64,000 nucleotides of DNA. It comes from Eledone cirrhosa (Eukaryota). Position numbers and translations under genes: made by a program. Positions 3,286 through 61,429 of the stretch are shown piece by piece (within the stretch, counting starts at the first letter, position 1; the number at the start of each line of letters is the position of its first letter). The stretch spans positions 22,320,001 to 22,384,000 of the forward strand of contig OZ024760.1 in the NCBI GenBank assembly GCA_964016885.1. The letters run 5' to 3'. The notes under the pieces are model-generated. The model was not told the origin of the DNA, did not search any database, and worked only from the letters and a program-made list of their open reading frames with translations.

Positions 3286-3500
3286 TAGGCACAAGGCCAG
3301 TAATTTGGGGGAGGGGAAAGTCGATTAAATCGACCCCAATGCGTTACTGGTACTTTACTTTACGTAGTCTATTTTAGGCACAAGGCCAGCAATAACCCAG
3401 TGCATTACTGGTACTTTATTTTATCAACCCTGTAAGGATGAAAGGCAAAGTCAACCTCGGCGGGATTTGAACTCAGAACGTAAAGGGACGTAACTATGCT
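3286..3500 (-). mobile_element. tRNA-derived SINE (family A)
   Basis: GGCACAAGGCC...ACTGGTACTTTATTTTATC...GGATGAAAGGCAAAGTCAACCTCGGCGGGATTTGAACTC (B-box GAGTTCAAATC on minus); multiple copies in the window. Confidence 0.8.
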
Positions 3501-3805
3501 GGAATATTAAGAGACATTAATATTAAGAGACATTTGTTCATGTAACGGCCCAATTATACAGAGGGCTTTTGCAGAGCATGTGGATCGGCAGCGGTATGTA
3601 GTCTTTCAAGATAAATATGATCTCTTGGAATTGAAAAATAACTCCCCTGACGAATTTGCGAATTCTTCAAATATTGGGCTTTTAATATTATTTCTTCTTC
3701 CGCAAATGAAACCATGGTAGGAAGATCGATACATAAACGGAATTGACTAAAACATTTTTGATCTGTCTCGCCCATAAATAGAGTTTCACTTAAATTTAAA
3801 ATGTC

Positions 3806-3859
<54 letters not shown>

Positions 3860-4017
3860 AAAAGAGTCAGGACCCCGACGGCTGAGCTCCAGTCGTTTCA
3901 ACAGCTAGATCCGAACCCAACAACAACTATATATATATATGTATGTATGTATGTGTGTGTTAAGTATTTCCGTAGAAAAGGTAAAGGAGTGCTCTATGTA
4001 TACTACAGAGCTATTTG

Positions 4018-11815: not shown

Positions 11816-13040
11816 GGTTATTATAATAAAGGTTCCTACTTTTGGCACGAGGCCAGCAATTATCCCAGTGCATTACTGGTACTTTATTTTATCGACCCCG
11901 TAAGGATGAAAGGCAAAGTTAACCTCGACGGGTTATTATAACTCGGTTATTATAATAAAGGTTTCTACTTTTGGCACGAGGCCAGCAATTAGCCAGTGTA
12001 TTACTGGTACTTTATTTTATCGACCCCGTAAGGATGAAAGGCAAAGTTAACCTTGACGGGTTATTATAACTCGGTTATTATAATAAAGGTTTCTACTTTT
12101 GGCACGAGGCCAGCAATTAGCCAGTGTATTACTGGTACTTTATTTTATCGACCCCGTAAGGATGAAAGGCAAAGTTAACCTTGACGGGTTATTATAACTC
12201 GGTTATTATAATAAAGGTTTCTACTTTTGGCACGAGGCCAGCAATTAGCCAGTGTATTACTGGTACTTTATTTTATCGACCCCGTAAGGATGAAAGGCAA
12301 AGTTAACCTTGACGGGTTATTATAACTCGGTTATTATAATAAAGGTTTCTACTTTTGGCGCGAGGCCAGCAATTATCCCAGTGTATTACTGGTACTTTAT
12401 TTTATCGACCCCGTAAGGATGAAAGGCAAAGTTAACCTCGACGGGTTATTATAACTCGGTTATTATAATAAAGGTTTCTACTTTTGGCACGAGGCCAGCA
12501 ATTAGCCAGTGTATTACTGGTACTTTATTTTATCGACCCCGTAAGGATGAAAGGCAAAGTTAACCTTGACGGGTTATTATAACTCGGTTATTATAATAAA
12601 GGTTTCTACTTTTGGCGCGAGGCCAGCAATTATCCCAGTGTATTACTGGTACTTTATTTTATCGACCCCGTAAGGATGAAAGGCAAAGTTAACCTCGACG
12701 GGTTATTATAACTCGGTTATTATAATAAAGGTTTCTACTTTTGGCACGAGGCCAGCAATTAGCCAGTGTATTACTGGTACTTTATTTTATCGACCCCGTA
12801 AGGATGAAAGGCAAAGTTAACCTTGACGGGTTATTATAACTCGGTTATTATAATAAAGGTTTCTACTTTTGGCACGAGGCCAGCAATTAGCCAGTGTATT
12901 ACTGGTACTTTATTTTATCGACCCCGTAAGGATGAAAGGCAAAGTTAACCTCGACTGGTTATTATAACTTGGTTATTATAATAATTATTTCTACTTTTGG
13001 CACAAGGCCGGCAATTATTCCAGTGCATTACTGGCACTTT
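11816..13040 (-). repeat. Tandem array of SINE-A core, 128/129 bp x9 plus a partial unit
   Basis: Unit starts at 11816, 11945, 12073, 12201, 12329, 12458, 12586, 12715, 12843 and 12971; the unit matches the SINE-A body seen at 3375-3460. Confidence 0.9.
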
Positions 13041-13059
13041 ATGGCTTCTCCTCCAATAT

Positions 13060-19155: not shown

Positions 19156-19160
<5 letters not shown>

Positions 19161-19343
19161 AACATGTTTAACCCCGGCGGCAGAGCTCAAGCCGTTTCGG
19201 CGGCTATTTCAGTCCAGAAATAGCCGTCGAAACGGCTCGGGCTCTGCCGTCGGGGATAAACATTTTCCTATTACCCACTCTACTACCCTAAGTATTGAGT
19301 ACTCTGGTGCGTTATCGTCCATCTGGTTCCTTACCACACCTTC

Positions 19344-47740: not shown

Positions 47741-48380
47741 CTCCAGCAGGTTACAAAGATTCCTTAAAATCGCCGTATTTCAATACGGTGTCCCTACAAC
47801 ACCGTTGGGAGTTAGGGGTCGATACCTACCATTTACCCACAAATATATCAAACCTATGACCAAAATGGCGTTCCAGGTTGGACCATCCAATCTTGGAGAT
47901 AACATAGCTCAGTATATTTTTTAAAACAGTTCAACGTCTTATGCTATGACGTTCCATCTCTGACCATCCTGTCCATTATTATCTCAATGATTATATCGTC
48001 TAATATATCTCTAAAGACATACCTACCATAACCATCGCCAACACCATCATAACTATCATCATCATCAACCCTAACACCACCATCAGTATTATCACCATCA
48101 TCATCAAAACTACTAACACCATCACCATAATGACGGCGTCGACATCCACCATCATCATCACCACTACCATTACTAACATTACCTCCGTAACTACAACTAA
48201 CGCCACCATCACTACCACTAACACCACCACTGCCACTACTATTGTTACTACCTCTCTTTTACCTCTGCAATATTAAATTTATATTATATATAACTTTTAT
48301 ATATAGAAATAGCCGCAGAAACGGCTTGAGCTCTGCCGTCGGGGTTAAACATTTTTCTATATATATATATATATATATAA

Positions 48381-59219: not shown

Positions 59220-60645
59220 CAATATATATATATTATATAATATATATATATAATATATATATAATATATATATATAATATAATATATATAATATATATAA
59301 TATAATATATATAATATATAATATATATATATATATAATATATATAATATATATATATAATATAATATATATAATATAATATATATAATATAATATATAT
59401 AATATAATATATATAATATAATATATATAATATAATATATATAATATAATATATATAATATAATATATATATATAATATATATAATATAATATATATATA
59501 TAATATAATATATATAATATATATAATATATAATATAATATAATATATATAATATATATATAATATATATATATAATATATATATAATATATATATATAA
59601 TATATATATATATAATATATATATATAATATATAATATATATATATATATAATATATATATATATAATATATATATATATAATATATATATATAATATAT
59701 AATATATATATATATATAATATATATAATATAATATATATATAATATATATAATATAATATATATATAATATATATAATATAATATATATATAATATATA
59801 TATATAATATAATATATATATATAATATAATATATATATATAATATATATATAATATAATATATATATAATATAATATATATATAATATATATATAATAT
59901 ATATAATATAATATATATAATATAATATATATATATAATATAATATATATAATATATATAATATATAATATAATATATATAATATATATAATATATAATA
60001 TAATATATATAATATAATATATATAATATAATATATATAATATATAATATATATATAATATATATATATAATATATATATAATATATATATATAATATAT
60101 ATATATATAATATATATATATAATATATAATATATATATATATATAATATATATAATATAATATATATATAATATATATAATATAATATATATATAATAT
60201 ATATAATATAATATATATATAATATAATATATATATAATATATATAATATAATATATATATAATATATATAATATAATATATATATAATATAATATATAT
60301 AATATAATATATATATAATATAATATATATATAATATAATATATATATAATATATATATAATATAATATATATATAATATATATAATATAATATATATAT
60401 AATATATATATATATAATATAATATATATATAATATATATATAATATAATATATATATAATATATATAATATAATATATATAATATATATAATATAATAT
60501 ATATAATATAATATATATATAATATATATAATATAATATATATATAATATATATAATATAATATATATATAATATATATAATATAATATATATATAATAT
60601 ATATAATATAATATATATATAATATATATAATATAATAATATATA
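57437..60645. repeat. 3.2-kb (TA)n/(TAA) tract
   Basis: Direct reading. Confidence 0.95.
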
Positions 60646-61100
60646 TAGGAACGAGTAGGACCCCGACGGCTGAGCTCAAGCCGTCTCGACGGCTAATTCT
60701 GGACTAAATGAAAATATTTATCCTGGTATTTGAATAGCCGAGCTTATCAAGGGGTAATTCCATATATGGTAAAAGTGATTGTCACAAGGATTGGTCAAAA
60801 GTTTGTTGTTGAGTCATAATAATTCTATCATGGCAATCTGTGGAGGGAAGGGGTAGCTGAAACCTCCATAAATTGCCATGATAGAATTATTATGTCTCAA
60901 CAACAAACTTTTGACCAAACCTTGTGACAATCACTTTTACCATATATGCAATTACCCCTTGATAAGCTCGGCTATTCAAATACCAGGATAAAAATGTTCA
61001 TTTAGTCCAGAATTAGCCGTCGAAACGGCTTGAGCTCAGCCGTCGGGGTCCTACTCGTTCCTATTACACACTCTACTACCCTAAGTACCGAGTACTTTGG
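60645..61100 (+). mobile_element. PLE-like fold-back (palindrome 60645-61064 plus tail)
   Basis: Arms ~200 bp with a 16-nt spacer; HHRs at 60660-60755 (-, GAGA mutation) and 60954-61049 (+). Confidence 0.85.
60954..61049 (+). ncRNA. Type I hammerhead ribozyme, U3:A8 variant with enlarged stem II
   Basis: ACCCC-TTGATAA-[GCTCGGCTATTC...GAATTAGCCGTC]-GAAA-CGGCT-TGAGCTC-AGCCG-TC-GGGGT. Confidence 0.8.
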
Positions 61101-61102
61101 GT

Positions 61103-61173
61103 GATGTGTTGGTGTAATGGTAGCACAGTGATCGCGATAACCAAAGATGTGGGTTCGACTCCCATGTACGTCA
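61103..61173 (+). pseudogene. tRNA-like sequence (pseudo-tRNA or SINE head)
   Basis: Acceptor GATGTGT/GTACGTC, D-arm GTGT-AATGGTA-GCAC, T-arm GTGGG-TTCGACT-CCCAT; anticodon stem mismatched. Confidence 0.65.
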
Positions 61174-61429
61174 ATACTCATCTTTTTCCATTTATCTGAG
61201 GGTTCTAAACCCCATTATCAGGCTAAAATTCCTTTAGTCAAAAATACGGTGAAAGCTATTCTATTTTCTATATATATTATATATATATTATATATATCAA
61301 TCAAGTATGTTTTGAATCAGTGAGTATATATATATATATATATATGTATATATACGTGTTTGTGTATGTGTATATGTAAGTGTCTGTTTCCATTTACAGC
61401 AATTAAAAACTCCAAAGACGACGACACCT

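What the first reader, a model, noticed from the sequence alone, without database searches (positions are those of the whole stretch)
60954..61049. Hammerhead variant with U3:A8 core covariation and a ~55-nt stem II domain
Seen: core UUGAUAA instead of CUGAUGA, 5-bp stem I, 6-bp stem III with a self-complementary GAGCTC loop, a GUC site and an unusually large stem II insertion. Known: positions 3 and 8 form a Watson-Crick pair in the active HHR fold, so a double change preserving it suggests selection. The 3' half recurs at 3870, 19170, 19220 and 48310.
Basis: partly seen in the sequence, partly recalled or inferred. Interest (0 to 1): 0.75.

Follow-up and report, generated by a model that had tools for sequence, protein, structure and literature searches.

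The report
Jumping-gene ribozyme wrapping a promoter
This is the self-cutting RNA motif at the end of a broken copy of a Penelope-type jumping gene; its odd core pair is already known and not strictly kept, but its long arm likely holds the element's own transcription start, which would explain why most copies in the genome carry only half the ribozyme.

Summary
The motif is real: a type I hammerhead at the 3' end of a Hydra-clade Penelope-like retrotransposon, here in a dead two-armed insertion. U3-A8 is published, also for Penelope hammerheads, and does not covary within this family. Of 3,246 whole copies 2,176 are U3-A8, 1,044 C3·A8 and 26 have G8; an older subfamily has U3·G8. The lineage went U3-A8, then C3·A8, then back to U3-A8 while amplifying. 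The rest of the core and stems are conserved. The new point concerns stem II. Truncated copies stop at a sharp wall inside it: 50 of the 57 sampled copies that reach it begin within -8..+12 of A61004. That A sits in an initiator-like context, 31 nt below a TATA-like box. In a sister family the wall lies 30 nt below a perfect TATAAATA. The long stem II therefore likely carries the core promoter; the main RNA would lack the ribozyme's 5' half, and the 47,609 3' halves would be run-off copies. Cleavage and start site are untested. The scan found this family before on other DNA (e1-9560118).

The parts
60954..61049 (+). Type I hammerhead motif of a Hydra-clade Penelope-like element (subfamily S5 background, with a G7-to-U change shared by both arms)
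60959..60965 (+). Core U3 U4 G5 A6 U7 A8 A9; positions 3, 7 and 8 vary between subfamilies
60966..61021 (+). 56-nt stem II domain: G10.1-C11.1, conserved proximal helix, variable distal part with hairpin 60986-61008; length 54-57 nt in all subfamilies
60973..60982 (+). TATA-like box TATTCAAATA at -31 from the wall (TATTTAAATA at -29 in subfamilies S6/S7); promoter role inferred
61001..61008 (+). Initiator-like TTT[A]GTCC; A61004 is the modal 5' end of truncated copies and the predicted transcription start (+1)
61025..61044 (+). Stem III (6 bp), loop UGAGCUC with palindrome, predicted cleavage after C61044 (+41)
60863..61100 (+). Right arm of the two-armed insertion (element 3' end with tail), cut off near 61100
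60645..60861 (-). Left, mirrored arm ending at the short fixed end (equivalent of 61064, +61); its hammerhead 60660-60755 has GAGA for GAAA (60685)
61103..61173 (+). tRNA-like head of a repeated element (probably a SINE) that interrupts the tail
19156..19338 (.). Short two-armed insertion of the same family; the + arm starts at A19211, the equivalent of +1
3855..3907 (-). 3' half from the diverged subfamily S0, starting at the equivalent of +2
48305..48364 (+). 3' half, starting about 6 nt below +1, in (TA)n

Best explanation
The motif is the hammerhead in the terminal repeat of a Hydra-clade Penelope-like retrotransposon, and its long stem II likely holds the element's core promoter, so that the main RNA would start inside the ribozyme, at A61004. 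Shown: the element (RT plus GIY-YIG reading frame about 190 nt below the upstream hammerhead, (TA)n targets, two-armed insertions); the conservation of core and stems; the four states of the 3:8 pair; the wall of 5' ends at A61004. Inferred: RNA polymerase II starts at that A under a TATA-like box 29-31 nt upstream. Such an RNA lacks stem I 5', the UUGANAA strand and the 5' strand of stem II, so its 5' copy cannot cut itself in cis. The element's enzyme would begin copying at two fixed points (+61, +139) and run off at the RNA's 5' end, giving the 93% of copies that are short 3' halves. Long copies would come from uncut RNA that includes the downstream repeat. The whole ribozyme forms only in the downstream repeat or in read-through RNA, where it likely cuts slowly after GUC, helped by pairing of two molecules through GAGCUC or by the element's protein. 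Cutting is likely dispensable or only weakly needed for jumping, which is why the 3:8 pair could pass through U·G and C·A states. The window's copy is a dead insertion whose arms differ at 8 of 202 positions.
For: Element: L031 has repeat-ORF-repeat with the hammerhead at 3405-3495 and ATG at 3684; RWR, DKT, YRDD, CxCx5C, VIY..YIG, CxxC and CxH motifs match the Hydra definition. Wall: of 85 distinct copies sampled by the tail alone (90 loci, 5 dropped as duplicates), 57 reach +12; 50 of these begin at -8..+12 (13 exactly at +1), 1 at -19, none from -20 to -110, 6 are whole. The wall is at the same place in the diverged subfamily S0 (20 of 27 truncated copies start at +1/+2; sample selected to reach +2; loose ends), where it lies in a predicted unpaired linker. 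Sister family L129: 20 of 20 truncated arms stop at or below one base above an A that lies 30 nt under TATAAATA, a box kept in L130 at -29. 47,609 3' halves against 3,246 whole. Published: Penelope has an internal promoter in its repeat (PMC2377424); a PLE enzyme starts copying at two internal sites, its hammerhead cuts only with protein present, and catalytic mutants do not impair insertion in vitro (PMC11167929). Core path: ORF tree with C3·A8 subfamilies S3/S4 branching above S2 (U3-A8) and below S5-S7 (U3-A8), support 100/91 and 93/93; same ladder from the repeat. Dimer cofold -64.3 against 2 x -25.6 kcal/mol gives two hammerhead junctions. Five true 5' ends at +41..+43, next to the predicted cut, are a weak hint of cutting.
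Against: No RNA data: no start site or cut end was observed. The TATA-like box here is imperfect and is absent in the one whole S0 copy. The wall base is also the A of a YAG after a T-rich stretch, as at a splice acceptor, and Penelope introns end near the hammerhead (PMC4209133). The monomer's best fold is a non-hammerhead one (fraction about 0.9%), and the dimer did not give the hammerhead fold for S4. In a type III hammerhead all double mutants of this region except the G:C swap had low activity (PMC9901934), so U3-A8 may cut poorly. The root of the subfamily ladder is not fixed by distant outgroups (10 against 12 sites); S0 sides with S1 (97 against 28 sites). The +41..+43 cluster is small, has microhomology and follows removal of one internal deletion. 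Samples come from the first 23 Mb of one contig.
Confidence: 0.62

Rival explanations
1. The wall is a stop of the reverse transcriptase at the stem II structure or at a bound protein (for example at a retained splice acceptor), and the long stem II is a structural or protein-binding domain of an ordinary Penelope hammerhead.
For: The wall falls in the 3' strand of the distal hairpin 60986-61008, the most stable helix in both folds. Stem II length is kept in S0 with another sequence that folds at -18 kcal/mol. YAG context at the wall in this family, S0 and L129.
Against: In S0 the wall lies in an unpaired linker. In L129 it lies above the core, outside stem II, 30 nt below TATAAATA. Starts include the AG, and no constant upstream exon is joined.
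Confidence: 0.2
2. One reading: a fully active hammerhead whose U3:A8 pair is held by strict selection and whose large stem II is a tertiary domain that supports the variant core.
For: Core and stems invariant across subfamilies; return from C3·A8 to U3-A8; a second, independent U3-A8 family with 100 of 100 listed copies U3-A8; natural U3-A8 ribozymes described as active in vitro (PMC3088659).
Against: 1,044 C3·A8 copies with near-intact reading frames and about 2-5% divergence; a U3·G8 subfamily; U3-A8 also occurs with a 20-nt stem II and long stems II with C3-G8; distal stem II varies at 18 of 42 positions; no covariation.
Confidence: 0.1
3. The hammerhead no longer cuts; its shape is kept only because the 3' half serves as promoter-proximal or enzyme-binding sequence.
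For: The 3:8 pair was broken twice in amplifying lineages; most copies are templated across the cut site; catalytic mutants do not matter in vitro.
Against: The 5' half (stem I 5', U4 G5 A6 A9, proximal stem II) is just as invariant while position 7 is free, the pattern of a hammerhead core.
Confidence: 0.08

Closest known systems
Hydra clade of C-terminal EN+ Penelope-like elements and their hammerheads (Craig et al. 2021, PMC8557442; section 11 and File S1/S2 tables read)
   Same: Protein motifs, (TA)n targets, inverted truncated copy, one-sided tail, type I hammerhead near the 3' end.
   Different: All 26 Hydra rows of File S2 (one family listed twice) begin CUGA with G8 and have short stems II and III; this family has A8, a 54-57-nt stem II, a 5-6-bp stem III with a 7-9-nt loop, a 3' UTR above 1.1 kb and a 78-nt tail. 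No start site was found in the passages read.
U3-A8 hammerheads (Perreault et al. 2011, PMC3088659, passages; Cervera and de la Pena 2014, PMC4209133, parts 1-2 of 4)
   Same: Same core change; about 1,300 such motifs in Schistosoma Penelope elements; palindromic loop 3 and dimer model.
   Different: Those PLE motifs are minimal (stem III nearly absent). No C3·A8 or U3·G8 subfamilies appear in the parts read.
Long-stem-II PLE hammerheads such as PLE-X1_sMoe (File S2 of PMC8557442)
   Same: Stem II domain of about 53 nt.
   Different: Plant element, C3-G8 core, other clade.
Penelope of Drosophila virilis promoter (PMC2377424, passages) and Poseidon of Anolis (PMC11167929, part 1 and passages)
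   Same: Promoter inside the terminal repeat; two internal copying starts that define the tail; hammerhead not needed for insertion in vitro.
   Different: In Penelope the promoter is TATA-less and the start lies above the intron and hammerhead; here the inferred start is inside stem II.

Membership tests
Type I hammerhead ribozyme | Three-way junction open at stem I | tested here: met
   Constrained fold -23.1 against -25.6 kcal/mol for the best monomer fold; family consensus fold has stems I, II and III
Type I hammerhead ribozyme | Core U4 G5 A6 N7, A9, G12 A13 A14, A15.1-U16.1, H17 | tested here: met
   All present at 60960-61044; 0 of 12 vary across nine subfamilies
Type I hammerhead ribozyme | Watson-Crick pair between 3 and 8 | tested here: inconclusive
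   Met in this copy (U-A) and 2,181 of 3,246 copies; not met in 1,044 C3·A8 and 21 U3·G8 copies or subfamily S1
Type I hammerhead ribozyme | Compensatory changes in helices | tested here: inconclusive
   None above shuffles in 43 close sequences; S0 keeps the proximal helix with another sequence, one whole copy
Type I hammerhead ribozyme | Match to an Rfam hammerhead model | tested here: not met
   the insert in stem II probably defeats the models
Type I hammerhead ribozyme | Self-cleavage after H17 | not testable with these tools
   Only a weak genomic hint, five 5' ends at +41..+43
Hydra-clade PLE | One ORF, RT with C-terminal GIY-YIG | tested here: met
   L031 (two frameshifts), L115
Hydra-clade PLE | RWK-type motif, DKT, CxCx5C linker, CxxC and CxH, no Cx2-5CxxC, no N-terminal GxKF/Y | tested here: met
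   RLRWR (R for K), SDKT, CNCPDGSIC, CNLC, CKH against PMC8557442 section 11
Hydra-clade PLE | (TA)n targets, partial tandem and inverted copies, tail | tested here: met
   15 short and 15 long ends in 30 copies
Hydra-clade PLE | RT tree placement with named Hydra elements | not tested
   Named reference proteins were only seen in a supplement and were not used in a tree
Non-LTR retrozyme | Non-coding tandem units with one hammerhead each | tested here: not met
   The motif belongs to a coding element with a repeat of about 1.35 kb
Pol II core promoter (TATA/Inr) | Fixed RNA 5' end at an initiator A about 30 nt below a TATA box | tested here: inconclusive
   DNA wall and spacing fit; TCAGTT initiator from PMC10290830; the -30 spacing is recalled; no RNA data

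The most novel reading that the evidence does not exclude
Hydra-clade Penelope elements start transcription inside their own hammerhead, which disarms the 5' copy and makes tens of thousands of MITE-like two-armed insertions as run-off copies to the cap; here stem II grew to hold TATA box and initiator. The loosened ribozyme walked through U·G, U-A and C·A at 3:8, the C·A state perhaps rescued by a slipped C3:G7 pair (C3 comes with G7 in 51 of 52 listed copies of one background, U3 with G7 in 2 of 48; one origin only), a core not found in my searches.
Probability: 0.4. Interest if true: 0.72.

Novelty: new variant of a known kind. Interest (0 to 1): 0.52.

Why it matters
What Penelope hammerheads do is an open question. 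A start site that splits the ribozyme would explain why cutting does not destroy the element's messenger, why short inverted copies dominate such genomes, and why some hammerheads carry long stems II. Truncation walls would then map promoters from DNA alone. The family is also a natural series of 3:8 variants (U·G, U-A, C·A) in one scaffold, each amplified in vivo, which makes the need for catalysis directly testable. The U3-A8 change alone is ordinary.

Tried and rejected
Rfam gave no hammerhead hit; Pfam gave none for three ORF pieces. Covariation on 45 copies: none above controls; my distal-hairpin register fits only the younger subfamilies. RNA evidence: no RNA holder listed; only contigs were laid. 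Metagenome relatives (15 loci) were short and gave only short-stem C3-G8 motifs. One pattern had a spacing mistake and found 0. Rooting by distant families failed; the tree used one sequence on the wrong strand and was replaced; seven tips are grouped by their inverted arms and were ignored; subfamily labels were partly wrong and were corrected. A monomer-off, dimer-on switch (AGCCGUC occurs twice) was considered: seen for S4-S7 monomers, not for S2-S3, margins 1.5-4 kcal/mol, so not claimed. Nematis, Neptune and Naiad were dropped on motifs. The idea that the recurring GTTCGGATC junction is a short-stem ancestor was rejected: it is the 3' part of another 56-nt stem II. The sigma-70 scan is not relevant. 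Papers not held: Lunse 2017, Przybilski and Hammann 2007, Nelson and Uhlenbeck 2008, Martick and Scott 2006; they may describe such cores or give rates. Literature searches that found nothing on the new points: 0 papers with Penelope-like, hammerhead, transcription start and TATA; G8A/C3U; CUGAGA; listing only.

Full report
Observation. The motif is as described. It lies in the right arm of a 202-bp inverted repeat, 60645-60846 and 60863-61064, next to a long (TA)n tract. The left arm holds a mirrored copy with GAGA for GAAA. The arms differ at 8 positions and share U7 where close relatives have G7. The genome is about 3.0 Gb, an animal, probably a cephalopod (inference).

What it belongs to. 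Copies at 98-99% identity are spread over the genome. One, L031, shows the whole layout: inverted 3' piece, repeat with hammerhead, reading frame, repeat. The protein has RWR, DKT, YRDD, a CxCx5C linker, a GIY-YIG core, CxxC and CxH, the marks of the Hydra clade of Penelope-like elements (PMC8557442). The window's copy is a truncated, non-coding insertion.

The 3:8 pair. Exact patterns give 3,246 whole motifs, 26 with G8 (5 C3, 21 U3) and 1,044 with C3·A8; 2,176 U3-A8 follow by subtraction. An older subfamily has U3·G8 in 19 of 22 copies. Trees of the repeat and of the reading frame give one ladder: S1 (U·G), S2 (U-A), S3/S4 (C·A), S5-S7 (U-A). A more diverged subfamily, S0, has U3-A8 (one whole copy; contigs agree) and sides with S1 at 97 against 28 sites. 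Distant outgroups do not fix the root. Sister families at 40-52% protein identity have C3-G8. A second Hydra family has U3-A8 with a 20-nt stem II (849 copies) and groups with C3-G8 families (95/93), so the change arose twice. U3-A8 is published for natural hammerheads (PMC3088659) and for about 1,300 Penelope motifs in Schistosoma (PMC4209133). In one mutational scan only the G:C swap rescued this pair (PMC9901934). So the pair is favoured over long times but was not required while this lineage made over a thousand copies. C3 comes with G7 (94 of 100 listed, counted by hand; 51 of 52), which may be a slipped pair or only shared descent.

Constraint. Across nine subfamily majorities, 2 of 51 core and helix positions vary against 44 of 79 elsewhere. 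The patterns fix part of this in advance, but contigs laid by likeness alone list no common change at U4, G5, A6, A8, A9, GAAA or GUC. There is no covariation signal.

Stem II. It is 54-57 nt in all subfamilies, also in S0 with another sequence. Other families here have 46-53 nt with C3-G8, and a plant element has about 53. Length alone is therefore not new.

The wall. The 3' half occurs 47,609 times. I sampled 90 loci by the tail alone; 85 were distinct. 57 reach +12 (A61004 = +1); 50 of them begin at -8..+12, with 13 exactly at +1, one at -19, none between -20 and -110, and 6 are whole. The seven at -4 are chance matches of the mirrored arm. S0 has the wall at the same distance from G12. The context is TTT[A]GTCC, TTC[A]GT in S7; TCAGTT is the fly initiator (PMC10290830). 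TATTCAAATA lies at -31; S6/S7 lost two bases and have TATTTAAATA at -29. In sister family L129, 20 of 20 truncated arms stop at or below one base above an A that is 30 nt under TATAAATA. A fixed RNA 5' end, most simply a transcription start, explains all this. A stall at structure explains S0 and L129 poorly. A splice acceptor would join a constant exon, which is not seen.

Mechanism (inferred). Penelope promoters lie in the repeat (PMC2377424), and a Penelope-type enzyme starts copying at two internal sites (PMC11167929). An RNA starting at +1 has both sites (+61, +139) near its 5' end, so copying runs off at the cap and gives short two-armed insertions such as 19156-19338. That RNA lacks the ribozyme's 5' half. 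The whole ribozyme forms only downstream or in read-through RNA. It probably cuts slowly: the monomer prefers another fold, the dimer through GAGCUC gives two junctions (not for S4), and the Anolis motif needs protein. Five true 5' ends at +41..+43 may record cutting; the cluster is small.

Limits. No RNA evidence. Samples are from the start of one contig. Four relevant papers were not held, and bioRxiv supplements are closed. That the start-in-ribozyme idea is not in print rests on one search and the passages read.

Verdict. A new variant of a known kind.

Noticed in passing
window about 2568-2641: Two-armed insertion of the sister Hydra family L129 (C3-G8 hammerhead); one arm starts at that family's predicted start site.
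   Followed up: partly
window 41492 (-), 41714 (+), 48663 (-), 48809 (+), 54732 (-): Five more hammerhead motifs with C3-G8 cores from three other families, two as back-to-back pairs.
   Followed up: no
L252-L263: Second Hydra family with U3-A8 and a 20-nt stem II, 849 copies, independent origin.
   Followed up: partly
L266:1470-1575 (-): Whole hammerhead of the diverged subfamily S0, with a 56-nt stem II of other sequence; about 3,000 3' halves in the genome.
   Followed up: partly
window 61015-61022 and 61038-61045: AGCCGTCG occurs twice (3' strands of stems II and III); it allows a non-hammerhead fold, and several copies are deleted between the two.
   Followed up: partly
window 61101-61265: tRNA-headed repeat, 80-93% like copies in other loci, probably a SINE, inserted in the tail.
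   Followed up: no
window 11825-13042: Tandem array with a period of about 128 nt matching a repeat in L031.
   Followed up: no
L116-L120, L123, L129: Two other Hydra families have many unbroken 714- and 758-codon frames; in the 714 family several are 98-99% alike, so it is probably young.
   Followed up: no
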